DNA of 64,000 nucleotides, taken from positions 1 to 64,000 of the IMG/VR virus record IMGVR_UViG_3300045988_107889; one strand, written 5' to 3'. Below the pieces are notes generated by a model. It had not been told where the DNA came from and did no database searches. It was given only the letters and a program-made list of their open reading frames with translations. The translations under genes were made by a program, and so were the position numbers. The stretch comes from a virus. Shown here piece after piece: positions 1,467-58,068 of the stretch. Numbering within the stretch: the stretch's first letter is position 1; every line of letters begins with the position of its first letter.

Positions 1467-1491
1467 ATTACTGCTCCTTCATCTATATGAG

Positions 1492-2682
1492 TTATCCTGT
1501 TGATTCTGTTTCTGTTATTTCTGACGCGCTGAGGGTGCCGCTGTCATCTACAGCTAGTTTAAACTTTTTAGTGCTTCCCTCTGTGGAAGAGTTAATGATA
1601 AGATCGGAGCCAACTCTTTGGATGTTGTCAGCGAGGAGCCTGTCGTCTAGCGGTTCTATCTCTTCCACAACCGTATATATGTCTGGCAACACTTGCCCAT
1701 CCGATTCGTAAGCGTAGAAATACGATGCCTTATCTTCGGAGGTGATTAAAATATATTTTTCACCGGTGTTGGTTCGATCTTTTGGATATCCAGTCGGAAA
1801 ATTTAACGACGACCAGCCGCCCGCGCTACCATATACAAAGCTCATAAGCCCCAGCATGTACAAATTCCCAACATACTGGAAAGGCACACCATCTTCTTCT
1901 ATTGTCTTTACGGCAGCTGGAGGAGATATGAAATTCATTTGATTAGCACTGTAGCCATTTTGAATTTGGATCTTAGTTCCCTCAGTAAGAAACGGGAGGT
2001 GTTCCTTATCTGCCATGATAAAATTCCATGGGGCACTGTTGCCGTTCCTTACATTCCCATAACGCCCGATCGGCATCGTCGCCTTAGTTCTTGTTAGCTT
2101 GTACAAGCAAGGCGCGTCCACTAAGTCACCAAAGTTTCCAGAGAAGTCTGATGCACCGATATTTTCCCGCGCCTGAGCTTTTTCACCGTCAGAAAAATTT
2201 TGACTAGACCAAGCGTAGACATATCTATCACCAAAACTGTTAATGCTATTATTGACGCTATTCATCTGAGCGTTAAATGCTGTACTAACCCGATCAACAT
2301 CCTTCTTCTTAGCAACACTCTTGGGCAGTAGCTCTTCCGGCAACAGCTTAATATCATACTTATTTTTAGTCGTCTGATCATTGCGATATATAGAGAGAGT
2401 CTTGTTTACGTATTCGCCAGTACACATCACAGATATCGTACCGTTATGCACACAGATACAGAACGAGTTGGTTGGCCATGTAGATGTGTCTGGCGGCAAC
2501 ACATAGTTATCTTGGAAATTATCAAGAAAAGGAGTCGTGCTAGCCCATTCCGGGAAACTATCATCACACTCCCGGCATTTTGCAGTAAGAGTAATCCTTT
2601 CGTCGCCGAAGTCGATATCGTATGACTGGCCTTCAGTTAGGTTAAACCAAAACATTATCTCCGTCGGTAAATCCACTCGCAA
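1492..2682 (-). CDS. hypothetical protein in the fibre/lysis region (possible receptor-binding or structural protein)
   Basis: 396-aa ORF in the operon orientation, tightly spaced with neighbours. No motif recognised. Confidence 0.6.
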   Translation of the reverse strand: MRVDLPTEIMFWFNLTEGQSYDIDFGDERITLTAKCRECDDSFPEWASTTPFLDNFQDNYVLPPDTSTWPTNSFCICVHNGTISVMCTGEYVNKTLSIYRNDQTTKNKYDIKLLPEELLPKSVAKKKDVDRVSTAFNAQMNSVNNSINSFGDRYVYAWSSQNFSDGEKAQARENIGASDFSGNFGDLVDAPCLYKLTRTKATMPIGRYGNVRNGNSAPWNFIMADKEHLPFLTEGTKIQIQNGYSANQMNFISPPAAVKTIEEDGVPFQYVGNLYMLGLMSFVYGSAGGWSSLNFPTGYPKDRTNTGEKYILITSEDKASYFYAYESDGQVLPDIYTVVEEIEPLDDRLLADNIQRVGSDLIINSSTEGSTKKFKLAVDDSGTLSASEITETESTG

Positions 2683-2793
2683 GCAATACGGACTTAACTA
2701 CCGTTTCCTTCCCAAGGTAATCCTTGTACGCAACTCTATTCCGCATTATCATATTCTGAATTGCGGTAAGTAAATTTTTAATATTCAGTTTAT

Positions 2794-32655: not shown

Positions 32656-33681
32656 TTACAGGTCAGCTAGTCCAGTTGCCTTAACATCTGTTTTAATTCC
32701 ATCTTCACCAAAATACTTTTCCAACTGTTCGTCATCAGGAGTGTCGTCATACAGCCGAACCATATCGGCGGAACTCCAGCCGATAACAGTCTGCACAACA
32801 CTATCCGGCAGACCAAGCCGTGCTAACTTTGTGGTGAAGAAATGACGTAAGGCGTGCCAATAGAACGGCACGCCCAATATTTTGCTAAACCGAACAGCCC
32901 AGCTGTTCAGCGTAGAAATATTCATTTGTTTCGTGGGGTCTGCTTTGTCATAAAACAGCCATTCGCTCTCCACGTTATTTTCTTTTCTCCAATTCATATA
33001 GAGGTCTAAGTAAGGGTCGAACTCTTTTGAGAGGGTGTAACAATAGAGATATTTACCGTTGCCAGCACCTTTTGTTTTTACCTTCTCCGGAGTCTTATAT
33101 AGCGACCCGTAAATAATGTTGTCGTTTGTGAACCAGTCTACCTTAAAACGCAACAGTTCCGACTTTCTTCTTCCGCTACACATAGCAAGTGACAGTGCGC
33201 ACGCTTGAGTAAACCTCTCTTCTTTAACCAGAATATCTAGCAGCGACTGCAACTGCTCATCAGAGAACACTGTTTTCTCTCTAACCGGCTGATTGATTGG
33301 GGACTCGATCTTCCTCACGATGGGACGATATCCTTCATACTCGTCGTCCAAAATATTCTCCACGTAATTGGATAGGGAAGAAAGGGCGGCCTTTAGACGT
33401 CTGACTCTTGCTGGGGAGTTTTCGTTCTCGTAGATAAGCCAGTTCTGATATGAGATCAGGTCACGCTTTGATAGGTCAACAAAGAATTTATTATTGTTGT
33501 TCTGCAGATTCCATACAAAGAAGATGTCGAGGTCGTGGGAGTACCCATCAATTGTTCCACTACTTCTTTGTACTGATTTTAGATAAGTAAGGAAATCGTT
33601 CTTCAATCTTTTATTTTCTGGATTAACCTGCTCTAAAAGCGTAGGGCTAGTGATGTTGTTATACTTTGTCTTACGTGGCAT
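32656..33681 (-). CDS. tyrosine recombinase (XerC/D- or phage-integrase-type)
   Basis: Box I SGRRKSELLRF, HALRHFFTT (HxxR), and GWSSADMVRLY (catalytic Tyr region). An N-terminal SAM-like domain is present. Confidence 0.85.
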   Translation of the reverse strand: MPRKTKYNNITSPTLLEQVNPENKRLKNDFLTYLKSVQRSSGTIDGYSHDLDIFFVWNLQNNNNKFFVDLSKRDLISYQNWLIYENENSPARVRRLKAALSSLSNYVENILDDEYEGYRPIVRKIESPINQPVREKTVFSDEQLQSLLDILVKEERFTQACALSLAMCSGRRKSELLRFKVDWFTNDNIIYGSLYKTPEKVKTKGAGNGKYLYCYTLSKEFDPYLDLYMNWRKENNVESEWLFYDKADPTKQMNISTLNSWAVRFSKILGVPFYWHALRHFFTTKLARLGLPDSVVQTVIGWSSADMVRLYDDTPDDEQLEKYFGEDGIKTDVKATGLADL

Positions 33682-33715
33682 ATACGCCCACCTCGCTTTC
33701 TAGCAGCATTCAATT

Positions 33716-34915
33716 TTAGTCTAGTCTTATATTGTATGACGCGTCTCGTCCGCACTCAGGATTGAAGAACAGCAGCGTCTGACCAGGAATGCTATACAGC
33801 CTTTTTGTATTAGCAAAGCTATCTGTGCCGCACAGCGCTCGAACAGAAATTGTTTCAATTGCAAGCTCTTCAAACTCTTCTAAGTGATGACGATGCGCTA
33901 AGATAATATAGTCAATCTTTTGGTCAAATCGTTGCGAGAAAAGTGCGTAAAGACTCTTCCCCGCTGTGTTGACTTTCTTCTCTAGGTCGCCGTGTGTCGC
34001 ACAAATGTAATAACCACAGACGTTCATTGTAGCGAACTCCGGATACTCAGAGTTAATAATATGAACGTGATTAAATCCAGCCAGCCTTAGCTCAAGCCAC
34101 CAGGGAATTAGCCGCTCTATATTATCTGTGTGGATACTATCTTTCTTATTCTGTACTGTACGTGAGTGATTACCGTAGGTGCAATACAAATTCAGTTCCG
34201 GCACATACTGTGATAATTCAGCAACCGTTTCAGCAATAAGCTCTGACACCTGCATAATCTGATCGCACACCAGTTGTTCCGACTCAATCCTAGAGGTTGT
34301 ATGAATGGCACCGCTAATCATGTCACCTAGCACAAGTATGTGCAGCTTGCTAGGCTTGTGTAACTTCATCCGCTCGACCGCGCCGTCAATCAGTTTTCTG
34401 ACGCGGTTAACACAGATATCGGTGCTATACTCGTTCCAAACATTATAGGTCTTCATCCCGTAATGCCAGTCCGCCAACACCAATACAGCCTCATTATTCC
34501 CACGAATCGTATGTAACTCTTCTTGGTAAAGATTATGCAGCTTAGGGGTTAAAGTGAGCGCAGCCTCGAACAACCTGTCACCTAACGCCTCCAGCCTGCC
34601 TGCATGAGACAGCTTCGCATCCAGGACTCTCTGCTGATCAAGTAGCGCTTTGCGCTCGTGTTCGATCCTTTTTGTCTGATTGTATAGCGGGTCTTTTGCA
34701 TTGACCTTATGGATGAGCAGCCCCTCATTGTCGATTACTTCAAATAACCGTTTCATGCCGTACATTCGTCGGCGAACCTCGGACGAACTGTAGGCGTTGC
34801 CCTCACCAAAAATCTCTTCGCTGATATCTTCAAAGCTGTCGGGGAGAGTACGGGTGACAAGTTTGCTATCGACAAGATATCGCAAGCGGTCGTAAGAGAT
34901 CACTGACGACGACAC
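33716..34915 (-). CDS. calcineurin-like metallophosphoesterase (SbcD/Mre11-style motifs)
   Basis: LADWHYG (DxH), LGDMISG (GD), YGNHSR (GNH), THGD and AHRHH motifs occur in the canonical order. Confidence 0.75.
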   Translation of the reverse strand: MSSSVISYDRLRYLVDSKLVTRTLPDSFEDISEEIFGEGNAYSSSEVRRRMYGMKRLFEVIDNEGLLIHKVNAKDPLYNQTKRIEHERKALLDQQRVLDAKLSHAGRLEALGDRLFEAALTLTPKLHNLYQEELHTIRGNNEAVLVLADWHYGMKTYNVWNEYSTDICVNRVRKLIDGAVERMKLHKPSKLHILVLGDMISGAIHTTSRIESEQLVCDQIMQVSELIAETVAELSQYVPELNLYCTYGNHSRTVQNKKDSIHTDNIERLIPWWLELRLAGFNHVHIINSEYPEFATMNVCGYYICATHGDLEKKVNTAGKSLYALFSQRFDQKIDYIILAHRHHLEEFEELAIETISVRALCGTDSFANTKRLYSIPGQTLLFFNPECGRDASYNIRLD

Positions 34916-36358: not shown

Positions 36359-37037
36359 AATTTTCTCCCTCTATATAAAACCGATTTCGCTGTGTCTTTT
36401 CAAATATTTCATTATGTAACTTTTTAAAGTCATTGCGTACAAGCTGAAACTTTCCAGCGTTATAAAGCGGAACCTCTATACGCAATCTAGTCTGAGCATA
36501 TTTACTAGTGGTTGTTTTCTTAGCTCGATGCCACACTGTAGTTGCGCTAGAGTCCAGCTTCGTGATGTACCCAAGCTTAATAAGCTCCGGTAAGTAGCTG
36601 TGGCTAATATGCTGTCTAGTGACACCGCACCACTCAGATAAAGCGGATAGGGAAATGTCAAATTCTCTATTCTTATTTGCGTACACCTTCGCATAGCATA
36701 GCAGAGCTAGAGCAAGTTTGCGTGTATTCTTTCCGTCAAACAAATTGACGATTCTGTTGATGTCTGTTTCGCTTATGTATAAAGTCACATTATCTTTCAA
36801 TCTATCATCACAATTACGCGCCGATTCAATAATGTCATTTACATTGTACTTCAAATAATTATCGGTACGCTTTGCCCACTCAAAAATCCTGTCTCTTGTT
36901 TCTCGGAAGGTACACCCTTCCTGGGTGTACCAACGAGCAATCATATAGGCGGCGCGGTAACGACCGCGTTCTGTTATCTTCTTTCCGTCAAGGTACTCTT
37001 TTACTTCATATACTTCATCTATCAAATGAGGGAACAT
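36351..37037 (-). CDS. winged-helix-like DNA-binding protein downstream of the RNA polymerase gene
   Basis: LSALSEWCGVTRQHISHSYLPELIKLGYITK looks like HTH/wHTH. Overlaps the end of RNAP exon 3. Confidence 0.5.
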   Translation of the reverse strand: MFPHLIDEVYEVKEYLDGKKITERGRYRAAYMIARWYTQEGCTFRETRDRIFEWAKRTDNYLKYNVNDIIESARNCDDRLKDNVTLYISETDINRIVNLFDGKNTRKLALALLCYAKVYANKNREFDISLSALSEWCGVTRQHISHSYLPELIKLGYITKLDSSATTVWHRAKKTTTSKYAQTRLRIEVPLYNAGKFQLVRNDFKKLHNEIFEKTQRNRFYIEGENYG

Positions 37038-37657
37038 CCTCCTTCTTTATCTTAATCATCGTATATCTCTTTCCTAGGTATTCGAGTTCTCCTGTATCAT
37101 CCTGCTTTGGCAGTTTGATGTCTGCCTGCTCGATATTGCTAACAATGCCAGCGCCGCCAACAACCCACTTAAACCGCTGATTCCACGTCCTGTGGTCATG
37201 GCATAACATGACGGCGGCGTTAGCAACCAGCGAGGCGTTGCCGTTACAAATAGAGTAGCAGCGATTCCTATACCGCTCGTACAGTAGGGCGTATGCTTTC
37301 TTGCGTTCCGCTTCCGCGTCCTCTCCATCGAGCTGTTTCAACTTGTGCGACAGCTCTTTTACCTCTGTGCAGAACGAGCGATAGACTTGCTCCATTTCCT
37401 TGTAGAGTTCGTCCGAAACAGGGATTTCATCGTTAATCATGATGTTATAGTCGAACTCTTGGTCAGCTCTTTTGTACCTGACGCCCTTCTTCCAATGCTC
37501 GATCTCCCAACACAGCTTATTCATATTGGACAGTGAACGAGACAGCTTCAGTCTTTCATAATACGGAGAGGCGTACTTCATAAAATAAGGGAGGGGGCGT
37601 CCATATTTTGAAATAGTGCGGGGCATAGGGTACAGGATTCCGGTCTTTGCGTAATCT
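37015..37657 (-). CDS. YonO/QDE-1-like single-subunit RNA polymerase, exon 3 of 3
   Basis: The frame is open upstream of the annotated Met back to 37657. Begins (A)GAT TAC GCA AAG ACC GGA = DYAKTG, then ...PLPYFMKY, which is RdRP-family-like. Confidence 0.7.
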
Positions 37658-38768
37658 CTTTTACACCCTCCGTTTCCGGATATTTGTTAGGGAATAGACT
37701 ATATCATTACCCGTAAGACACGGGCAGTCAGCGCTTCCATTTAAGGGGATCTCACCCACTGAGAGTTTCACTCAGCCGTACTCCTATTGCGGAATCTCAC
37801 CGCCAACGGGATAGTCGTTGCACCTTCCTTATTAAAGGCTTGGCACAGAATTATCATATAGCACATTGTTTTTAACTTATATTATTTGATGTACACCATT
37901 CATCCCATCCGTCAACATGTACGTGCTTCCACGTTCTGTTATTCTTTATACTGAGCACGATGCCGTAACTGATGTTATTCTTTTTTGAAACCGCAGTAAT
38001 ATTTTCTCCATTCATAAGCGATTCCTTTATCCCTTTAGCGACGTCTTCAGATATTTTAGCGGATTTGTTTTTGCTTCCTTGAAGCGCCTTTGAGATCTTT
38101 TCTCTCGTATAATCACTGACGACTCTTCCCGTCATAAGCTCTCGCAATTTATTTTTGTGTTCATCTGAGCACGGTAAATGTTTGCTTGACTCTGACATTT
38201 TTCGCTTCGTCTCTTCAGAAGCTTTTCGCCCAAGCATATGCTCCCGATTTTTCTCTCCGACGATACGCTTTGCGTGGTCGTTCATAGGCACCCCACGTTT
38301 CCCGCCTCCGCCATCCGAAATATTGTAGCAGCTCCCTTTATCTTTTAGTTCTTTTATGTAGTATATTTCAGCGGCATCGACGTCATCACTATCGCTACAA
38401 ATTTGCACAACTGAAAACGTGAAGGAGTCTGATCCGTATTTATTCCAGGCGTTTTGTAAATGCCTGTTATCGTGTGAATGATCATTTAATTTCCAACAAT
38501 GATTCCAAAATCTTCTTTGAAAATTTTGCTTGGTCTGCCCAATATATTGCTTGCCGTTAACTGTATTGGTAATAGAATATATTCCAAAAAGATCTTTATA
38601 TTTTTCTTCTTCTATAAATTTCAATAATACTCCTCTTGGTAACTCATCAGAATTTATTTTATGTGCTACTTAGATTTTCTCTGTTAGCCGGTTCTTGACC
38701 GACACCCTACATGTGTAGGTTCACTGACTTTGCACTACGCTGTTACCAGCGCAGGCCACCGATTGTTG
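37658..38768 (-). mobile_element. group I intron (1111 nt) carrying a GIY-YIG homing endonuclease ORF
   Basis: 5' splice site follows U (..AAAUCCAU|CAAC). Intron nt 10-13 GUGG pair with exon CCAU (U-G wobble), and nt 5-8 AAUC pair with the 3' exon GAUU (P10). The intron ends in G (..GUAAAAG|AGAUUAC). Contains a P7-type AAUGAUAUAGUCU. Shares blocks with the intron at 39053-39332. Confidence 0.75.
37872..38624 (-). CDS. GIY-YIG homing endonuclease (I-TevI-like, with NUMOD-type repeats and a C-terminal HTH)
   Basis: GIYSITNTVNGKQYIGQT..RRFWNH..N GIY-YIG core, repeated ..EETKRKMSES / DEHKNKLREL / REKISKAL motifs, TTG start preceded by GAGGAG. Confidence 0.85.
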   Translation of the reverse strand: MKFIEEEKYKDLFGIYSITNTVNGKQYIGQTKQNFQRRFWNHCWKLNDHSHDNRHLQNAWNKYGSDSFTFSVVQICSDSDDVDAAEIYYIKELKDKGSCYNISDGGGGKRGVPMNDHAKRIVGEKNREHMLGRKASEETKRKMSESSKHLPCSDEHKNKLRELMTGRVVSDYTREKISKALQGSKNKSAKISEDVAKGIKESLMNGENITAVSKKNNISYGIVLSIKNNRTWKHVHVDGWDEWCTSNNIS

Positions 38769-39052
38769 ATGGATTTACCTGTTAAGACACTTATAATGTC
38801 AATATACTTCTCATACTTATCTCTTTGTTCTTCTGTTTTACCACATCTGTTTCTGTATGCTGTTGCGTAATTACTGTACTCACCAATCAAATTCTTCATT
38901 GTCCGTAGGATTACTTTCAACCTGTTCTCTGGCGTAAATTCCTCCGGCTCTGTTGTAATCTTATCATCTACGTCTATAACAGGTATGGCGTTTTTTTCTA
39001 CGCCGTTTAGTAACCTGTCATCATCAAATACTAAAACTAAATCTCCGTCAAA
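38769..39052 (-). CDS. YonO/QDE-1-like RNA polymerase, exon 2 of 3
   Basis: No start codon. Frame is open from 39052: TTT GAC GGA GAT = FDGD...LVLVFDDD... and ends ..LTGKS-AU. The ORF-track ORF 38735-38920 is its 3' part running into the intron. Confidence 0.7.
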
Positions 39053-39332
39053 CTTCTACTCTCGTAGAAAGACTATATCATCTACCGCATAGCGGCAGCG
39101 GTGCGCTTGGAAGCCCGTATCAATAGGACTCCTACTGGGCTACACTCATCACCCATAGTCGTTGCACATTCCTTAAAGGCTTGCACAGGATTACCTTCCC
39201 GGCTTCCCCTGTTAGCTGAACAACTAGCAGTCATTTCCTACTGCTCCTGACGTTTGCTCAACACCCGCTGATAAACGGTTCACACCGAGCTTACACCTAC
39301 GTTACCGCAGGGAAGGACTTTGTTTAGGAGTA
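39053..39332 (-). mobile_element. group I intron (280 nt, ORF-less)
   Basis: 5' splice site follows U (GCAGAU|UACUCC). Intron nt 11-17 CAAAGUC pair with the 3' exon UUUG (P10) and the 5' exon GAU (P1, U-G). Ends ..GUAGAAG|UUUGAC. Contains GAUGAUAUAGUCU and GCAAGCCUUUAAGGAAUGUGCAACGACUAU blocks shared with the other intron. Confidence 0.75.
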
Positions 39333-40739
39333 ATCTGCTCCATTCAATCTTTGTGGGATTATTGATTTAGAATTGATGATGCACGTATTAACCAAATGAC
39401 TGAGGTACTTGCTTGTTAATTCATTATTGATAGCGTACAACACGACATTCTCACTATCACAAATGTGAGGGTTACGTGTAATCAACTTGCCGCCGTGCAT
39501 TGGCCCTTCTTTTGTTATACAGTAAAATTCATTGTCGCCGAGACAACCGTTAGGATCTAAACCAGCCGCCGCTTCCATGAATGCAATTAAGTCTGGTATC
39601 AGAAACTTGAAGCAGCTCTTGATCCATATCTTGCCGCAGCACATCTCGTCTATGTATTTAGTCAGCAGACTGATTAAGTAACTCCGCACTTCATATTGTT
39701 TAAGCATAGCGGGATTCTTTATTACGGACTTTGCATAGTCGTTTAAGGGACTGCACTTATCTGCCGTCAGCCCTAAGAAGCACATAGAGTAGAAGGGATC
39801 GCCGTCAATAATCTTTTGTGCCCACTCAATAGAGTCCGTAGCAAGCTCAACAAATTCTTGGTAGGGGAGGTTGAGCGTCTGAAGAACCTGGTAGTTGCAT
39901 CTCGTATAAACTGGCTCGATATCTTTATTGAAGTTCCATTTAGCAACGCCTAAGCAATAACCATACTTTTCGAATTGCTCCCAATAATATTCCCAGTCTG
40001 TTGCATCTTTGTTCGTCTGAAAATATTTGAAGCCCTTATACATACTCTTGCTCAAGATAATCATCGGCTCGGCGTCCGGGGTAACGTCATGCGACACGCC
40101 CCATATATCCTTGATAGATGTTACACCCCGCTCGGCGTAGAAGGTGGGGTAATCAACCTCGCAGGTAAGACCTTTGATATACGGCGCTCGCCAAAGTATC
40201 GTCGTCGGGCTATCAGCAGACGACAGCCGGAACTGAACCTCGTCCGTAATAGCCGGGTGGTGTATGCCACAACCGTCAAATGGAGTTACGTTGATATCTC
40301 TATATCCGTCCGCCACGCTCTTTTGCGTCCAGAGGATCTCTTTGCCATCAGCGTTGGTGAAAGATGTCTTTTCATCGTATATGTATTTGATATGCTGTTG
40401 CGGCAACACGCACTCGTAGTCCGGCACAACAATCACTTTAGGGCGGAAGCCATTCAAGCAATGGCAAGAAGAAAGGCATAGACCCCTATAAGCCATCAGC
40501 TTACTTATGACGGTCGGGCCGGGGCCAGCCCCCATAGTGATTGCCTCGTACACCGGATCTGATATAGCCGCGTCGATAAAGCTCAAGATAGAGTTGCGGG
40601 TCATGCTCGCCGATCGTTCGCACAGTACAAAGTGAGTGCCGTTTAACCAGAACCCATTCATAATTAGCTCCGTCATGACGTCTGTATCAGAGGAGCTACC
40701 CTTACAATCGACAAAACAAATACGCCGCGCACAGGTCAC
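39333..40739 (-). CDS. YonO/QDE-1-like RNA polymerase, exon 1 of 3 (5' end uncertain; frame open to 40892)
   Basis: Ends ...RLNGAD at 39333; the annotated ..YS* tail is intron read-through. The GTG at 40739 is the first canonical start. The frame continues 51 codons upstream to a CTG that lies 7 nt after GAGAGGTG. Confidence 0.7.
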
Positions 40740-40922
40740 ATCTTCGCCTGTGATACGCCGTATCTGATAGAATAGTAAATTGTCTGCCTGCTTTATTTCG
40801 TAGGGACGCAGATCTACCCGTAAAGAAAAATTGTTCTCTTTTAATAGCTTGAAAGCTATCTTGTATGTCGTGTATAGCTTAGGTGCGAACAGTTAAAAGC
40901 ACCTCTCTTATCATGAAAGTGA

Positions 40923-48660: not shown

Positions 48661-49449
48661 ATGAATAACAATGAATTGTTGAAAAAGTACGAATCCACTA
48701 CCACCACCGACCTGAACAATCAGGTGAAGTCCGCTGTCGAGAAGGCAAACGCCTATGCTAAACAGCCCGAACTGAACCAGGTCGAGCTGTTGAAGCTCCG
48801 TGCCGATGCCGTTGCTCTGGCAGATGACTATAACCGTCTGGTAAAGCTCCGCCGTCTGGGCGAGCTGGCCGCCATGTCCTACGGGGACGCCATCAACGCC
48901 ATGACGGTAGAGGGCGGGGAAACTTGCCCCAAGATGGAAGTGATTCTCGATGGGGAGATCATGAACATCACCACGTCCAACGCCACCCGTATCCGCTGGA
49001 ACGAGTTGTTGAAGGCTGGCCAGTGTCCCGACGGTTACGAAAACCTGGAATCCCTGGTAAAGGTTTTCACCCACAACTGCCTCACCAACAAATTTGAAAA
49101 GGGTCAGTTGGTCGAGCTGCCCCCGCTGGACCCCGCTATCAAAGCGGTCGCTAATGGTCGTGACAACTGGGACTCTGGCTCTATGAATAAGTTGCAGTGC
49201 CAGATCCGGGATCTCATCGGCTGGATGTTCCCGGTGGACGAAGTAGGGGAATACTCTGCTCCTAGAAAGTCTGATGTACGGTGGTTTTCTGACATCGTTT
49301 GCCCTGCGAGTGACCGCGCTGGTGAACCTGCCCACTATGTCCAGCGCAAGGTATCTACTTTGTTGGACTCCCTGTTCAGAGTGTTCTATACCCTGAAAGA
49401 GGAGAAGGAAGTGGTCGTACGGCCTGCAAAAGCTAGCAAGAACCAGTAA
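48661..49449 (+). CDS. hypothetical protein (262 aa) downstream of the structured RNA
   Basis: Strong RBS aaaaaggagaataacc-ATG. GC-richer codon usage like the recombinase. No motif recognised. Confidence 0.7.
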   Translation: MNNNELLKKYESTTTTDLNNQVKSAVEKANAYAKQPELNQVELLKLRADAVALADDYNRLVKLRRLGELAAMSYGDAINAMTVEGGETCPKMEVILDGEIMNITTSNATRIRWNELLKAGQCPDGYENLESLVKVFTHNCLTNKFEKGQLVELPPLDPAIKAVANGRDNWDSGSMNKLQCQIRDLIGWMFPVDEVGEYSAPRKSDVRWFSDIVCPASDRAGEPAHYVQRKVSTLLDSLFRVFYTLKEEKEVVVRPAKASKNQ

Positions 49450-49559
49450 GTCGTTCCGGCGACTATAAACAGGCGTTAGGCCGGGAGCGTTCGCAGGTTA
49501 GGGCAAGCCCAACCTGCGAGGTCGCAGGAATAACATAGGTGGATTCTGTCTATGCCTGC

Positions 49560-55571: not shown

Positions 55572-55647
55572 ACCAGCATAGTTTTAAATGGGAAAACAAC
55601 GGTCTCCAAAACCGTAGTTCTAGGTTCGAGTCTTAGTGCTGGTGCCA
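55572..55647 (+). tRNA. trnW-CCA: tRNA-Trp (CCA)
   Basis: ACCAGCA/UGCUGGU acceptor (A1-U72, G73), anticodon arm ACGGU-CUCCAAA-ACCGU, T-loop UUCGAGU, CCA encoded. Confidence 0.85.
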
Positions 55648-55714
55648 CGTGCAAGTTTAATTGCACGGTGTGTAGTGTGAAAAAAGTCATATATTGCTCT
55701 ATGTATATAACCTC

Positions 55715-55863
55715 ACGGCGTAAAAGAGGTTGACTGTCTGACCGCAGTTATTCCAGTGCAATTCTGGTTGCCGTACACGCTGCTCAAAGCGGGTGAAGAG
55801 GTGTGGCACACTCCTTCCGTGCCTCACTTATGACTTCAAGGCGGTGCAATTCCGCCTAGCAGC
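55715..55863 (+). ncRNA. two adjacent tRNA-like / degenerate tRNA elements sharing a hairpin loop UGCAAUU
   Basis: Unit 1 (55715-55774): ACGGCG...CCAG-UGCAAUU-CUGG-UUGCCGU. Unit 2 (55779-55863): GCUGCU...GGCAC-ACUCCUUCC-GUGCC...GGCGG-UGCAAUU-CCGCC-UAGCAGC. Both lack a D-stem and CCA. Confidence 0.35.
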
Positions 55864-56053
55864 TCTCAATCGCTCTAGTTAACTGGTTCTGGGGCGAGGG
55901 TCAAAACCAGCAACCTAAACATTGATTGCAGACACCTGGTTAAGTACAGGCTAGGCAAGAAAGCTCTCAGGCACGGTTGGGCAACACAATCCAGCCCTAT
56001 CCTTTGGTTAGGCCGACTGATTGATAGGGCGGTTGTGGTTGCTGAACAAATAT

Positions 56054-56144
56054 CTCCCTGTAGCTAAATTGGTTATAGCTTCCAACTTATAATTGGAAGG
56101 CCCTCATAAGGTATATGGTGATTCGAATTCACCCAGGGAGACCA
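56054..56144 (+). tRNA. tRNA with anticodon UAU (Ile2-type reading AUA) but a class II-like 19-nt variable arm
   Basis: CUCCCUG/CAGGGAG acceptor, D-arm GCUA..UAGC, anticodon arm UCCAA-CUUAUAA-UUGGA, variable region AGGCCCUCAUAAGGUAUAU, T-arm GGUGA-UUCGAAU-UCACC, A-CCA. Confidence 0.65.
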
Positions 56145-56195
56145 CGATACCACGATAAAAATCTAATTCCATAAATAAGAAAGTGAGGAACTAAT

Positions 56196-56849
56196 ATGAA
56201 CAAAGAAACTATGACCGTCCATAAAGCTCTTGCGGAGCTGAAAATTTTGGACGCTAGAATTTTCAACGCCACTTCTGGCAAAACATTTGTCGCCGCGAAG
56301 AAGGTGAGCGACAAAAAGATCGGCGGTGTGTTGGTCGAAACCCTCAAGAAGGATATGAAGTCTGATTATCAGTCTGTTACGGACTTGATTGCTCGTCGGA
56401 CTGCCATTAAGAGAGCAGTTGTGCTCTCTAATGCCAAAGCTAAGGTAGTAATTGGTGGTGAGACCTATACTGTGGCAGAAGCTATTGAAATGAAGAACCA
56501 TGGCCTCATGGCAAAGAGAGACTTGCTGGATGTAATGGTTCGGCAGTATGAAAAGGCTCGTGCCGAGGTCGCCAAACACGAAGGCGAGTGGATTGAAGCG
56601 AAAGCCGAGCAATACATTATGAATTTCCTTCAGTCGCAGCCCAAAGAGGCCAAGACAACCAAGGATTCTGAGGTCGTTAAGCGGTTGAGAGAAGAGTATA
56701 TTGCCAACAATACGTATGAACTCATTGATCCGCTTGACATTGGTAATGAAATCAAGGTTTTGAGCGATTGGATTGACGCGTTTACTGCGGATGTAGATTC
56801 TCAGCTGTCTGTGTCCAATGCGACCACTACAATCACCGTAGAATACTAA
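56196..56849 (+). CDS. hypothetical protein embedded in the tRNA array
   Basis: 217-aa ORF with RBS gtgaggaactaat-ATG. Helical and Lys/Glu-rich. Confidence 0.7.
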   Translation: MNKETMTVHKALAELKILDARIFNATSGKTFVAAKKVSDKKIGGVLVETLKKDMKSDYQSVTDLIARRTAIKRAVVLSNAKAKVVIGGETYTVAEAIEMKNHGLMAKRDLLDVMVRQYEKARAEVAKHEGEWIEAKAEQYIMNFLQSQPKEAKTTKDSEVVKRLREEYIANNTYELIDPLDIGNEIKVLSDWIDAFTADVDSQLSVSNATTTITVEY

Positions 56850-56856
56850 AATAATC

Positions 56857-57199
56857 AACTTGCTGCAACCCGAAAACCTAAAACGGTAACCCATCGTGCT
56901 GACGGCACTTGGTTCGATGTAAAAATGAACAAATATGTGCCAACTACAAGGCAAACTTGAAATTTTGTGCTTGTAAAAAGATTGGGCGGTTAATCCAAAT
57001 CTCTTATAAAAAGAAGATATTTGCTGTAAAGCTCAAATTTCAAAGCTCGAATTTCAAAATTCAAGGCTCAAAGATCTTCAGAAGATTAAAGTTCAAGGGT
57101 CAACGTTCAATGGTTAAAGTTTTACAAAATCCTGGGTTAATGGTTTGGGTCAGTTATCAACGCCCACGGGTCAACCACCAGGCTGGGTTGTAGCAAGTT
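56857..57199 (+). ncRNA. ~343-nt element closed by a 15-bp helix, containing TTCAA/GCTCAA-type short repeats
   Basis: AACUUGCUGCAACCC (56857-56871) pairs with GGGUUGUAGCAAGUU (57185-57199). The single difference is a G-U wobble only on the plus-strand RNA. The interior has aagctcaaatttca/aagctcgaatttca and ttcaagg(c/g)tcaa repeats. Confidence 0.4.
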
Positions 57200-57205
57200 C
57201 AATAT

Positions 57206-57290
57206 GCGGGATTGGCGGAATTGGTAGACGCATCGTGTTTAAGTCTCGATGTCGAAAGACGTAGGAGTTCGAGTCTCCTATCCCGTACCA
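57206..57290 (+). tRNA. trnL-UAA: tRNA-Leu (UAA)
   Basis: GCGGGAU/AUCCCGU acceptor, anticodon loop UUUAAGU, long variable arm, T-loop UUCGAGU, A-CCA. Confidence 0.8.
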
Positions 57291-57439
57291 AAGAAAAGCC
57301 CATAGTTTGCGGACTATGACACCTGAAAAGTGGCGGTTTGCTTCTGGTAGACCGTAGTAGTGTGTTGACATCCTGGAAGAGACAGGAGTTCCCCTTTTTG
57401 ATCCCCCTTACATAGCTACCCCGCTTTGCGGGGTAGCGT

Positions 57440-57515
57440 GGCCGATTAGTTTAAATGGTAAAACGGCGGATTTGTACCCCGCAGATGTCGAGTTCGAGCC
57501 TCGCATTGGCCTCCA
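57440..57515 (+). tRNA. trnT-UGU: tRNA-Thr (UGU)
   Basis: GGCCGAU/AUUGGCC acceptor, anticodon loop UUUGUAC, T-loop UUCGAGC, U-CCA. Confidence 0.8.
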
Positions 57516-57516
57516 T

Positions 57517-57590
57517 GCTACTATAGTTTAATGGTTGAACGGTTGTTTCGTAAGCAACAGGTTCCAGTTCGATTCTGGGTAGTAGCTCCA
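57517..57590 (+). tRNA. trnT-CGU: tRNA-Thr (CGU)
   Basis: GCUACUA/UAGUAGC acceptor, anticodon arm GUUGU-UUCGUAA-GCAAC, T-loop UUCGAUU, U-CCA. Confidence 0.85.
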
Positions 57591-57593
57591 TAT

Positions 57594-57668
57594 CTGGGTG
57601 TAGCGCAATGGAAGCGCTCCTGATTTGGGATCAGGAGGTTGTCAGTTCGAGCCTGACCACTCAGACCA
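57594..57668 (+). tRNA. trnP-UGG: tRNA-Pro (UGG)
   Basis: C1-G72 acceptor CUGGGUG/CACUCAG, anticodon arm CCUGA-UUUGGGA-UCAGG, A-CCA. Confidence 0.85.
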
Positions 57669-57670
57669 AT

Positions 57671-57745
57671 GCAGGCGTAGTTCAACGGCTAGAACACCGG
57701 TCTTCCAAACCGGAAACGCGAGATCGGCACTCGTCGCCTGCTCCA
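57671..57745 (+). tRNA. trnG-UCC: tRNA-Gly (UCC), non-canonical T-loop AUCGGCA
   Basis: GCAGGCG/CGCCUGC acceptor, anticodon arm CCGGU-CUUCCAA-ACCGG, U-CCA. Confidence 0.8.
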
Positions 57746-57851
57746 TATCAAGCAACAGAAAACGATTCTCCTACCTGTTATTGTTGATAAATCACCTCCT
57801 TTCTTTACATAGCCTGGAATGGCGTTAAACTCTGCTCTGCTTGATTTATAT

Positions 57852-57925
57852 AGCGCCGTAGCATAACGGTAATGCAACGGACTTTGACTCCGTAAACGGT
57901 AGTTCGACACTATCCGGCGCTGCCA
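57852..57925 (+). tRNA. trnQ-UUG: tRNA-Gln (UUG)
   Basis: AGCGCCG/CGGCGCU acceptor, anticodon arm ACGGA-CUUUGAC-UCCGU, T-loop UUCGACA, G-CCA. Confidence 0.8.
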
Positions 57926-57983
57926 CGTTCGTTTTATACGGACACTTGCTTTCATTAACCGGCGGTACCACCGCCGGTAACAT

Positions 57984-58068
57984 GTGGGCGTGATGTAATT
58001 GGCAAACATGCGAGATTTAGGTTCTCGTGTCGAAAGATGTGCGGGTTCGAACCCCGTCGCCCACTCCA
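57984..58068 (+). tRNA. trnL-UAG: tRNA-Leu (UAG)
   Basis: GUGGGCG/CGCCCAC acceptor, anticodon arm CGAGA-UUUAGGU-UCUCG, long variable arm, U-CCA. Confidence 0.85.

What the first reader, a model, noticed from the sequence alone, without database searches (positions are those of the whole stretch)
37658..38768. Second, related group I intron carrying a GIY-YIG homing endonuclease, inserted in the DYAKTG motif
- The 5' splice site follows U (..AAAUCCAU|CAAC..).
- Intron nt 10-13 (GUGG) pair with exon CCAU (U-G wobble). The adjacent nt 5-8 (AAUC) pair with the 3' exon GAUU.
- The intron ends ..GUAAAAG|AGAUUAC.
- It shares ordered sequence blocks with the 280-nt intron: CUGCG..GGUAAC..GUAG, GUGAACC, GCUAACAG, AAGCCUUUAA..GG..GUGCAACGACUAU and AUGAUAUAGUCU.
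- A 250-aa I-TevI-like GIY-YIG ORF (TTG start with GAGGAG RBS) sits in a peripheral loop.
- So there are two paralogous introns within 1.7 kb of one gene, one with and one without a homing endonuclease. This looks like a snapshot of intron spread or HEG loss.
Basis: partly seen in the sequence, partly recalled or inferred. Interest (0 to 1): 0.7.

Follow-up and report, generated by a model that had tools for sequence, protein, structure and literature searches.

The report
Mobile intron splitting a phage polymerase
This is a self-splicing group I intron carrying its own GIY-YIG homing endonuclease, sitting in a conserved motif of a phage YonO-type RNA polymerase gene: a well-known kind of selfish element in a host gene where I found no published description of one.

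Summary
Window 37658..38768 (minus strand, 1111 nt) is an intervening sequence. Removing it, together with the 280-nt intron at 39053..39332, gives one 828-aa RdRP/YonO-family RNA polymerase ORF. This restores ..GKSI|DYAKTG.. and ..GAD|FDGD.., which are contiguous in all full-length, uninterrupted homologues aligned.

The RNA has every group I hallmark:
- U·G at the 5' splice site in P1, P10, and a terminal G.
- P3-P9 with the P3/P7 pseudoknot.
- 98.7% of cells paired and 18 pairs with compensatory changes across eight orthologues.

The 250-aa ORF in the P5 loop is an intact I-TevI-like GIY-YIG enzyme.

Related phages show every occupancy state, so the element is or recently was mobile. States seen are an empty site, intron plus endonuclease, and intron without endonuclease.

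- The two introns share a family architecture but are not each other's closest relatives. Intron 1's lineage carries an HNH endonuclease elsewhere.
- The true closest relative is an unannotated intron plus GIY-YIG gene in yonO of Bacillus SPbeta-like phages. It lies in the same motif, 4 nt away.

Verdict: new member of a known kind, of moderate interest.

The parts
39333..40892 (-). Exon 1 of the YonO/RdRP-family RNA polymerase gene. Probable CTG start at 40892..40890; ends ..NGAD.
   Evidence: The ORF and N-terminus match homologues (MFAPxLYT..). The CTG is conserved in six related genomes. Pfam PF05183 scores 58 bits.
39053..39332 (-). Intron 1: a 280-nt group I intron without an ORF, splitting the catalytic GAD|FDGD motif.
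   Evidence: Junctions are defined by homologues. It has the same architecture as intron 2. An identical empty site exists in L008. Rfam scores 22.4 bits.
38769..39052 (-). Exon 2 (284 nt; FDGDLVLV...LTGKSI).
37658..38768 (-). Intron 2: the finding itself, a 1111-nt group I intron with an endonuclease ORF in the P5 loop.
38756..38764 (-). Internal guide sequence AAUC-GGUGG. Nt 5-8 form P10 with 3'-exon GAUU. Nt 9-13 form P1 with exon CCAU plus intron C1.
   Evidence: helices 1 and 2 (100% paired). Compensatory changes in L078, L001 and L002. Coordinates.
38735..38754 (-). P2 hairpin (CUGCGCUG / CAGCGUAG) with a GUAA tetraloop.
   Evidence: helix 3; three pairs with compensatory changes.
38722..38728 (-). 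P3 5' strand, GUCAGUG.
   Evidence: It pairs 7/7 with 37727..37733. It covaries within and between introns and in 18 of 20 other family members.
38687..38719 (-). Two extra hairpins (here called PA and PB) between P3 and J3/4, a trait of this intron family.
   Evidence: (helices 5-7).
38663..38684 (-). P4 5' strand ACAGAG, J4/5, and the P5/P5a 5' strands (..UC..GUAGCAC).
   Evidence: (helix 8; A-U to G-C switch in 4 sequences).
38630..38635 (-). GAGGAG ribosome-binding site of the endonuclease gene.
   Evidence: Read directly from the sequence; 5 nt upstream of the TTG.
37872..38624 (-). GIY-YIG homing endonuclease gene (250 aa, TTG start) inside the P5a terminal loop.
   Evidence: Pfam GIY-YIG 1.6e-13 and NUMOD3 8e-9. 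PHROG homing endonuclease 5e-42. I-TevI catalytic domain 1MK0, E = 1.5e-10. Orthologues at 45-54% identity.
37822..37864 (-). P5a/P5 3' strands, P4 3' strand UUCUGU, and the P6 hairpin.
37811..37816 (-). P7 5' strand GACUAU (part of the conserved R element GUGCAACGACUAU).
   Evidence: It pairs 6/6 with 37697..37702. L001 has a compensatory GACCAU/AUGGUC (helix 12).
37746..37809 (-). Peripheral hairpins between P7 and P3' (P7.1/P7.2-type, typical of subgroup IA).
   Evidence: helices 13-16. This is the stretch similar to the SPbeta bnrdF intron.
37727..37733 (-). P3 3' strand, CGCUGAC.
37710..37724 (-). P8 hairpin.
   Evidence: (helix 17).
37697..37702 (-). P7 3' strand AUAGUC (part of the S element AUGAUAUAGUCU).
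37658..37696 (-). P9 with an internal GAAA-capped hairpin. The terminal G (omega-G) is at 37658.
   Evidence: (helices 18-19). The terminal G is present in all 16 introns compared.
37015..37657 (-). Exon 3 (DYAKTGILYP... to the stop codon).

Best explanation
Window 37658..38768 (minus strand) is a mobile group I (subgroup IA-type) intron in the gene for a phage single-chain, two-barrel RNA polymerase of the YonO/RdRP family.

**Splicing (inferred).**
- The gene is transcribed through both introns.
- Intron 2 folds into the P1-P10 ribozyme.
- Its guide sequence (nt 5-13) holds the 5' exon by CCAU/GUGG, with U·G at the cleavage site. After the first step it holds the 3' exon by GAUU/AAUC.
- An external guanosine cuts the 5' splice site.
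- The terminal G at 37658 then docks in P7 and the exons are ligated.
- This recreates codons ..Ser-Ile-Asp-Tyr-Ala-Lys-Thr-Gly.. of an essential motif.

**Homing (inferred).**
- The terminal loop of P5a holds a separately translated gene with its own GAGGAG site and TTG start.
- It encodes an I-TevI-like GIY-YIG endonuclease.
- In a mixed infection or a prophage encounter, this enzyme would cut an intron-less allele of the polymerase gene near the insertion point.
- Repair from the intron-bearing copy would then copy in the intron and flanking exon sequence.

**What is shown and what is inferred.**
- Shown here from sequence and comparison: the boundaries, the fold with covariation, the intact endonuclease, the presence/absence polymorphism and the mosaic flanks.
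- Inferred: the splicing chemistry, the cleavage and the homing.
For: **Boundaries.** Splicing restores an 828-aa ORF and two motifs that are contiguous in all ten full-length, uninterrupted homologues aligned. The first 3'-exon base varies A/U/C, as expected for the third position of an Ile codon.

**Fold.**
- RNAalifold independently finds P1, P2, P3, P4-P6, P8 and P9.
- With the P7 pseudoknot and P10 added, 98.7% of cells pair, against 35-51% when partners are slid.
- 18 pairs carry double changes against 5.4 +/- 1.8 in shuffles; 0 of 500 shuffles reach the observed value.
- P3 pairs 7/7, with a variety of different sequences, in 18 of 20 other family members.
- P1 switches with the exon (AGCAU/GUGCU) in a host only 52% identical.

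**Rfam.** The endonuclease-free orthologue passes the Intron_gpI gathering score (50.5 bits).

**Endonuclease.**
- GIY-YIG and NUMOD3 domains are present.
- It aligns to I-TevI 1MK0 with GIY, YIG, Arg, Glu and Asn conserved.
- Full-length orthologues exist at 45-54% identity.

**Mobility.**
- Site 2 is empty in most homologues.
- It is occupied with the endonuclease in L001, L008 and L078.
- It is occupied without it in L003, L009, L010 and L080.
- The window and L008 share the intron (5 differences in 1111 nt) and about 800 nt of flanking exon at about 99% identity. Adjacent parts of the gene differ by up to 23%.

**Lineage.** The same intron-plus-endonuclease lineage sits in the same motif of yonO in Bacillus SPbeta-like phages. 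Those polymerases are only 24% identical to this one.
Against: - There is no experimental evidence of splicing or cleavage.
- The window copy itself scores only 24.3 bits against Rfam RF00028, where the gathering score is 50.
- The family has two hairpins between P3 and J3/4 that the Rfam consensus does not model, and I could not match them to published subgroup nomenclature.
- The endonuclease uses a weak TTG start.
- It lacks the ~50-aa C-terminal extension of the Bacillus and L078 orthologues, so its activity is not assured.
- P10 in the window skips the first exon base (G9 opposite A+1).
Confidence: 0.9

Rival explanations
1. Direct paralogy. One of the two introns arose from the other inside this gene, by ectopic homing or reverse splicing followed by endonuclease loss. 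The locus would then be a snapshot of within-gene spread.
For: The two introns have the same architecture and share ordered blocks. They lie 284 nt apart in one gene. Both sites are occupied together in the window's clade and in two distant prophages, L232 and L233.
Against: - By BLAST they share only about 43 nt at 86% (41 bits).
- Introns from unrelated contigs score higher against each: L173 scores 99 bits to intron 1, and L093, L115 and L147 score 145-290 bits to intron 2.
- The shared blocks are the family-wide conserved core, found in more than 120 IMG/VR contigs.
- Intron 1's lineage occurs alone (L216). It also carries a different endonuclease type (HNH) in a different loop (P6) in L215.
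Confidence: 0.08
2. A splicing-competent intron whose endonuclease is decaying or inactive. The element is inherited vertically and persists only because precise loss is rare.
For: Endonuclease-free derivatives are common among close relatives (L003, L009, L010, L080; phi3T in Bacillus). The ORF has a TTG start and lacks the C-terminal ~50 aa seen in the Bacillus and L078 orthologues.
Against: - The ORF is intact.
- The catalytic GIY/YIG/Arg/Glu/Asn positions are conserved against I-TevI.
- L001 has the same 250-253 aa length.
- The intron plus about 800 nt of flanks is near-identical between two otherwise diverged phages. This points to recent transfer.
Confidence: 0.15
3. Not an intron but a gene fragmented by insertion of a free-standing endonuclease cassette. 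The polymerase would be made as three separate polypeptides that assemble, as in some split phage genes.
For: Gene callers and GenBank annotators treat such loci as separate CDS (yonO_1 / hypothetical protein / yonO_2 in Goe11; phi3T_59/60).
Against: - The intervening RNA has a complete, covarying group I core with a guide sequence that tracks the exon sequence.
- Endonuclease-free versions of the insert (309-316 nt) still interrupt the gene.
- The breaks fall inside GAD|FDGD and I|DYAKTG.
- Exons 2 and 3 have no start codon or ribosome-binding site at their beginnings.
Confidence: 0.03

Closest known systems
Unannotated intron (with or without a GIY-YIG gene) in yonO of Bacillus SPbeta-like phages. 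With a ~300-aa GIY-YIG gene: Goe11, Goe14, BUCT083, SPbetaL4-7. Without an ORF: phi3T, SPR, SPbetaL3. SPbeta itself is intron-less.
   Same: - Same host-gene family and the same motif (I-D-F/Y-A-K-T).
- Same RNA architecture: GUGAACC..GGGUGU, P3 GUCAGUG/CGCUGAC, and near-identical P9.
- The endonuclease sits in the P5 loop.
- The endonucleases are 45-46% identical over their full length. They are the best hits among all 50,697 phage records; the next best is 37%.
   Different: - The insertion point is 4 nt further downstream: ATCGAT|TTC against AT|AGAT.
- The host polymerases are only 24% identical.
- The Bacillus enzyme has an extra ~50-aa C-terminal region.
- The records carry no intron annotation, and I found no paper describing it.
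Phage T4 td intron with I-TevI
   Same: - A phage group IA intron in a nucleic-acid-metabolism gene.
- It carries a GIY-YIG endonuclease in a peripheral loop.
- The catalytic domain matches I-TevI (1MK0) at E = 1.5e-10.
- The homing mechanism is presumed the same (established knowledge of I-TevI).
   Different: - The host gene differs (thymidylate synthase).
- From my own knowledge, the td ORF lies in P6a rather than P5.
- There is no detectable similarity outside the catalytic and NUMOD modules.
- The window's intron has two extra hairpins between P3 and J3/4.
SPbeta bnrdE/bnrdF introns and other Bacillus/Staphylococcus phage group I introns (for example Twort orf142, with three introns in one gene)
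   Same: - Phages of Bacillota, with multiple introns in one gene or operon and sporadic distribution.
- The P7.1/P7.2 region of the window's intron is 73-77% identical to the bnrdF intron and relatives.
   Different: - The bnrdF intron has a canonical P3 directly before J3/4.
- It carries an HNH endonuclease (yosQ).
- Its host genes are ribonucleotide reductase subunits.
Bacillus cereus-group nrdF group IA intron with GIY-YIG endonuclease (Nord et al. 2007, PMC2248736)
   Same: A bacterial or phage IA intron encoding a GIY-YIG homing endonuclease, with strain-to-strain presence/absence (abstract seen).
   Different: The host gene differs. No specific sequence relationship was tested here.

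Membership tests
Group I intron | 5' splice site follows a U that forms a U·G wobble with the internal guide sequence in P1. | tested here: met
   CCAU|C pairs with GGUGG. The pairing is 100% across 8 orthologues (helix 1). There is a compensatory exon/guide switch in L078.
Group I intron | The intron ends in G (omega-G), and the 3' exon pairs with the guide sequence (P10). | tested here: met
   A terminal G is present in all 16 introns compared. P10 AAUC/GAUU is 100% paired (helix 2). A8:U+1 in L001 and G8:C+1 in L002 extend it.
Group I intron | A P4-P6 domain with conserved P and Q elements. | tested here: met
   P4 ACAGAG/UUCUGU pairs 6/6 with two compensatory positions. P5 and P6 covary. 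The Rfam alignment places the Q/P6 elements (AAUUCUGUGCCAAG) on the consensus; the endonuclease-free orthologue aligns P, Q and P6 with high posterior.
Group I intron | A P3-P7-P8-P9 domain with the P3/P7 pseudoknot and R/S elements (G-binding helix P7). | tested here: met
   P7 GACUAU/AUAGUC pairs, with compensatory GACCAU/AUGGUC in L001. P3 pairs 7/7, and P8 and P9 covary.
Group I intron | A score at or above the curated Rfam RF00028 gathering threshold (50 bits). | tested here: inconclusive
   The window copy scores 24.3 bits and intron 1 scores 22.4 bits. The endonuclease-free orthologue of intron 2 in L003 scores 50.5 bits, and two other family members score 64 and 73 bits. The 798-nt insert (HEG ORF plus flanks) in the P5a loop and the extra hairpins depress the score.
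Group I intron | Guanosine-dependent self-splicing. | not testable with these tools
   This needs in vitro transcription with GTP, or RT-PCR from infected cells.
Subgroup IA (Michel-Westhof) | Extra pairings (P7.1/P7.2) between P7 and the 3' strand of P3. | tested here: met
   Three hairpins lie at 37746..37809 with covariation (helices 13-16). The region is homologous to the same part of the SPbeta bnrdF intron. Assignment to IA1, IA2 or IA3 was not attempted.
GIY-YIG homing endonuclease (I-TevI-like) | An N-terminal GIY-YIG catalytic domain with conserved Tyr, Tyr, Arg, Glu and Asn. | tested here: met
   Pfam PF01541, E = 1.6e-13. The alignment to 1MK0 shows GIY, YIG, R, E and N conserved.
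GIY-YIG homing endonuclease (I-TevI-like) | Modular DNA-binding region (NUMOD repeats and a helix-turn-helix) C-terminal to the nuclease. | tested here: met
   NUMOD3, E = 8e-9. The C-terminal 190-245 region is conserved among orthologues. That it is a helix-turn-helix is inferred, not tested.
GIY-YIG homing endonuclease (I-TevI-like) | Encoded in a loop that leaves the ribozyme core intact, with sporadic distribution among alleles. | tested here: met
   The ORF is in the P5a loop, and L003 has the same stem closed by a 3-nt loop. Occupancy states are shown.
GIY-YIG homing endonuclease (I-TevI-like) | Site-specific cleavage of the intron-less allele. | not testable with these tools
   This needs a cleavage assay.
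YonO / RdRP-family two-barrel RNA polymerase (host gene) | The RdRP (PF05183) fold signature with a D-x-D-G-D metal-binding loop. | tested here: met
   PF05183 scores 58 bits against a cut-off of 23.8. GADFDGD is restored by splicing. The protein is 24% identical to SPbeta YonO, E = 1e-28. The profile hits eukaryotic RdRP 7w82 at E = 2.5e-4.

The most novel reading that the evidence does not exclude
The intron and GIY-YIG pair is a lineage specialised on one motif (I-D-Y/F-A-K-T) of YonO-type polymerases.
- It has crossed between phages of Bacillus and of gut Clostridia, whose polymerases are only 24% identical.
- It has slid its insertion point by 4 nt, by turning the guide segment that pairs with GAU(U) from a P10 element into a P1 element.
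- Its double-strand breaks also drive the spread or erasure of the ORF-less intron 1, 284 nt upstream, by co-conversion (trans-homing).
- Together with the two hairpins between P3 and J3/4, shared by many IMG/VR phage introns and poorly scored by Rfam, this would define an undescribed and widespread structural subclass.
Probability: 0.2. Interest if true: 0.55.

Novelty: new member of a known kind. Interest (0 to 1): 0.4.

Why it matters
- **Annotation.** It shows that YonO-type single-chain RNA polymerase genes are intron targets at their two most conserved motifs. This explains why the gene is annotated as two or three fragments in several phage genomes, including cultured Bacillus phages phi3T and Goe11.
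- **A natural series for study.** The related phages provide empty sites, an intron with its endonuclease, an intron without it, and a 4-nt shifted site. This series could be used to study the homing cycle and guide-sequence retargeting.
- **A tractable model.** SPbeta crossed with Goe11 in Bacillus subtilis offers a system for testing homing.
- **No new biology.** The finding does not reveal a new kind of element.

Tried and rejected
- **Rfam at gathering thresholds on the window.** No Intron_gpI hit; only sub-threshold hits appeared with E-value mode.
- **GTDB scan with the single protein.** It found nothing. The profile scan worked.
- **Literature searches for an intron in yonO.** Searches on YonO, phi3T and Goe11 found none.
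- **Lazarevic 2001.** The paper is not held, so the published subgroup of the SPbeta introns could not be checked.
- **Search for 'P3.1/P3.2' nomenclature.** It was uninformative.
- **An alternative P3 (GCU/AGC next to J3/4).** I rejected it. It is invariant, overlaps the 7-bp helix, and RNAalifold and family-wide covariation favour GUCAGUG/CGCUGAC. The alternative P3 that the Rfam model appears to pick in L003 is absent from the window sequence (the alignment lines could not be read unambiguously).
- **L002's intron.** I left it out of the structural alignment because its core is of a different, compact type.
- **Covariance model.** I did not build one. The intron exceeds the practical size limit, and anchored per-helix analysis answered the question.
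- **Intein, group II intron and simple intergenic spacer.** I excluded these because the insert is not in frame, has group I rather than group II features, and interrupts invariant motifs.
Full report
**1. What is in the sequence**

The feature lies on the minus strand. Reading that strand:
- The 5' exon ends ..GGUAAAUCCAU at 38769.
- An intervening sequence of 1111 nt runs 38768..37658. It starts CAACAAUCGGUGG and ends GGGUGUAAAAG.
- The 3' exon starts AGAUUACGCAAAG at 37657.

I removed this stretch and the 280-nt stretch at 39332..39053. That gives one continuous reading frame. Extended to a CTG directly after an in-frame TAA at 40892, it encodes 828 aa.

The protein is a member of Pfam RdRP PF05183 (58 bits against a cut-off of 23.8). 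It also matches an uncharacterised PHROG (1e-79). It is 24% identical to YonO, the single-chain DNA-dependent RNA polymerase of Bacillus prophage SPbeta (E = 1e-28). YonO's function is described in PMC5467207 and PMC8270828, seen.

**2. The boundaries are fixed by homologues**

A protein search returned 487 relatives. Most are uninterrupted proteins of 800-880 aa covering 98-99% of the spliced product. In the alignment of the spliced product with ten full-length, uninterrupted homologues, all of them read ..QRL(N/Q)G.D.DGDL.. and ..GK(S/A)ID.(A/R)KTG.. without a break. The splice junctions I inferred fall at GAD|FDGD and KSI|DYAKTG. Three further rows in that alignment (P0004, P0008, P0021) are intron-truncated exon-1 fragments that end ..NGADYS.

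Of 80 IMG/VR loci encoding the protein, 73 are single uninterrupted matches.

At site 2 the first base of the 3' exon is A, U or C in different phages. This is the synonymous third position of the Ile codon, and it places the junction to the base.

**3. It is a group I intron**

Rfam's Intron_gpI model gives only sub-threshold hits in the window: 24.3 bits for this intron and 22.4 bits for the 280-nt one. No other group I candidate appears in the 64 kb.

I collected orthologues of the site-2 intron from related contigs:
- L001 and L008, which carry the endonuclease.
- L003, L009, L010 and L080, which lack it (309-316 nt).
- L004, with a different insertion.
- L078, from a host protein only 52% identical.

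RNAalifold on eight of them, run without guidance, returned P1, P2 (with a GNRA loop), a long-range 7-bp P3, P4, P5, P6, three hairpins after P7, P8 and P9. I added the P7 pseudoknot (GACUAU/AUAGUC) and P10 and counted pairs:
- 98.7% of cells are standard pairs, against 35-51% when partners are slid by 1-3 columns.
- 18 pairs carry changes on both sides, against 5.4 +/- 1.8 in shuffles.
- 0 of 500 shuffles reach the observed value on any measure.

Individual tests agree.
- P7 switches U-A to C-G in L001.
- P4 switches A-U to G-C in four sequences.
- P3 reads GUCAG/CUGAC, GCCAG/CUGGC or GUUGG/CCAAC at site 2, and CGGUG/CACCG or CGACG/CGUCG at site 1.
- In 18 of 20 other phage introns of the same family from IMG/VR, the equivalent 7 nt pair 7/7, with a variety of different sequences.

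The guide sequence tracks the exon. Where the host uses AGC instead of UCC for Ser (L078), the guide reads GUGCU instead of GUGG, and P10 extends to 7 bp.

The endonuclease-free orthologue in L003 reaches the Rfam gathering score (50.5 bits). The window copy's low score is therefore explained by two things: the 798-nt insert (the endonuclease ORF plus flanks) in the P5a loop, and two family-specific hairpins (PA and PB) between P3 and J3/4 that the consensus does not model.

The hairpins between P7 and P3' are the IA-type P7.1/P7.2 elements. They are the part similar (73-77%) to the SPbeta bnrdF intron and to other Bacillus, Staphylococcus and Brochothrix phage introns.

**4. The ORF**

- It spans 38624..37872 and encodes 250 aa from a TTG, 5 nt after GAGGAG. 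The L001 orthologue has ATG at the same codon.
- It has a GIY-YIG domain (1.6e-13) and a NUMOD3 module (8e-9).
- It matches a homing-endonuclease PHROG (5e-42).
- It aligns to the I-TevI catalytic domain 1MK0 (E = 1.5e-10) with the GIY, YIG, Arg, Glu and Asn positions conserved.
- It lies entirely in the terminal loop of P5a (GUAGCAC[..]GUGCUAU). In L003 the same stem is closed by GAC.

**5. Relation to the 280-nt intron**

Both introns have the same order of helices: P1, P2 (GUAA loop), P3, PA, PB, J3/4, P4-P6, P7, P7.x, P3', P8, P7', P9. In each, P3 pairs 7/7, P4 6/6 and P7 6/6.

They are not each other's nearest relatives, however.
- BLAST links them only through about 43 nt at 86%.
- Introns from unrelated contigs score higher against each of them.
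- The shared P6-P7 motif occurs in more than 120 IMG/VR contigs.
- Site-1 introns occur alone (L216).
- In L215 a site-1 intron carries an HNH endonuclease in P6, with no intron at site 2.

The two sites thus host two separate intron lineages of one large phage intron family, each with its own endonuclease history.

**6. Evidence of mobility**

Among phages whose polymerase is 94-97% identical to the window's:
- L008 has intron 2 with the endonuclease but an empty, sequence-identical site 1.
- L009, L010 and L080 have intron 1 plus an endonuclease-free intron 2.
- The window has intron 1 plus intron 2 with the endonuclease.

More distant hosts, and GTDB prophages in Lachnospiraceae, Clostridiales Family XIII and Faecalibacillus, show further combinations.

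A sliding comparison shows a mosaic:
- The window and L008 are about 99% identical from CDS nt ~1500 to ~2300 (8 differences in 800 nt).
- They differ at only 5 of 1111 intron positions.
- The next 100 nt differ at 23 positions from L008 and at 0 from L010.

This is the pattern expected of recent transfer with co-conversion of flanking exon sequence. Intron 1 is present or absent inside that 99% tract, so it too was gained or precisely lost recently.

**7. Closest known relative**

A BLAST hit extending 16 nt into exon 3 led to Bacillus phage phi3T. There the yonO homologue is annotated as two CDS separated by about 415 nt. That spacer is a 400-nt intron of the same architecture.

- In Goe11, Goe14, BUCT083 and SPbetaL4-7 it contains a ~300-aa GIY-YIG gene in the P5 loop.
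- That protein is 45-46% identical to the window's enzyme over its whole length. It is the best match among 50,697 phage records; the next best is 37%.
- SPbeta itself is intron-less: ACT ATC GAT TTT GCA AAA ACC.
- The Bacillus intron is inserted after GAT (ID|FAKT). That is 4 nt downstream of the window's AT|A GAT.

None of the three records I inspected (phi3T, BUCT083, Goe11) carries an intron feature. I found no paper in the held library that describes an intron in yonO.

**8. Mechanism**

The best-supported explanation is a self-splicing, endonuclease-mobilised group I intron, as detailed in the Best explanation section.
- Shown: the boundaries, the covarying fold, the intact endonuclease, the occupancy polymorphism and the mosaic flanks.
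- Inferred from established knowledge of group I introns and of I-TevI: the two transesterifications, cleavage of the empty allele, and repair-mediated copying.

**9. Verdict**

This is a new member of a well-known kind. The modest interest comes from four points:
- The host gene is an RNA polymerase of the YonO type, split at its catalytic motifs.
- An endonuclease-intron lineage is conserved across very divergent hosts.
- The insertion point is shifted by 4 nt between lineages.
- The cultured Bacillus phage records inspected leave the element unannotated.

Noticed in passing
window 49449..49526 (+): A Pistol self-cleaving ribozyme (Rfam RF02679) scores 66.9 bits against a gathering score of 34.5.
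   Followed up: no
window 55572..58065 (+): A cluster of nine tRNA genes.
   Followed up: no
window 40890..40892 (-): The polymerase gene appears to start with CTG, directly after an in-frame TAA and 8-9 nt after AGAGAGGUG. The CTG is conserved in six related genomes. More distant homologues use GTG, TTG or possibly ATA. This gene family seems to use weak start codons systematically.
   Followed up: partly
window 39053..39332 (-): Intron 1 splits the metal-binding GAD|FDGD motif. It has no ORF here. A relative at the same site (L215 5588..6452) carries an HNH endonuclease in the P6 loop, and L216 has it without any site-2 intron.
   Followed up: yes
L211 (phi3T) 1495..1909; L213 (Goe11) 1484..2788; L212 (BUCT083): Bacillus SPbeta-like phage records annotate yonO as two separate CDS, with a 'hypothetical' or GIY-YIG protein between them in some. 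The gap is a group I intron homologous to the window's intron 2, inserted 4 nt further downstream in the same motif.
   Followed up: yes
L002 4848..5108: A 261-nt intron sits at exactly the same splice point. Its first ~20 nt (guide sequence and start of P2) resemble the window's intron 2. Its catalytic core is a different, compact type: CAGGGAACACC, P3 directly after P7, and no P7.1/P7.2. This suggests a chimera or an independent invasion of the site.
   Followed up: partly
L004 2596..3168: This orthologue of intron 2 has no P5 ORF. Instead it has a ~250-nt insertion in the P6 loop, containing only an antisense 79-aa ORF of unknown nature.
   Followed up: no
window 37015..40892 compared with L008 and L010: The gene is a mosaic. 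It is about 99% identical to L008 across CDS nt 1500-2300 and intron 2. It then switches to L010-like sequence, with 23 differences against 0 in the next 100 nt. Intron 1 is absent from L008 inside the 99% tract.
   Followed up: partly
window 38687..38719 (-) and equivalents in L096-L165: Two hairpins lie between P3 and J3/4, flanked by the conserved GUGAACC and GGGUGU. They are shared by many IMG/VR phage introns and by the Bacillus yonO intron, but not by the SPbeta bnrdF intron. I could not establish whether published subgroup schemes cover this arrangement.
   Followed up: partly
window 38769..38779 and 37650..37657 (-): RNAalifold also pairs the 5' exon GUAAAUC with the 3' exon GAUUAC. 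This is probably chance complementarity around the splice sites.
   Followed up: no
window 32656..34915 (-): A tyrosine-recombinase-like ORF (341 aa) and, next to it, a 399-aa ORF. Neighbouring genes in related loci carry Phage_integrase and Metallophos Pfam hits, consistent with a temperate phage of about 107 kb.
   Followed up: no
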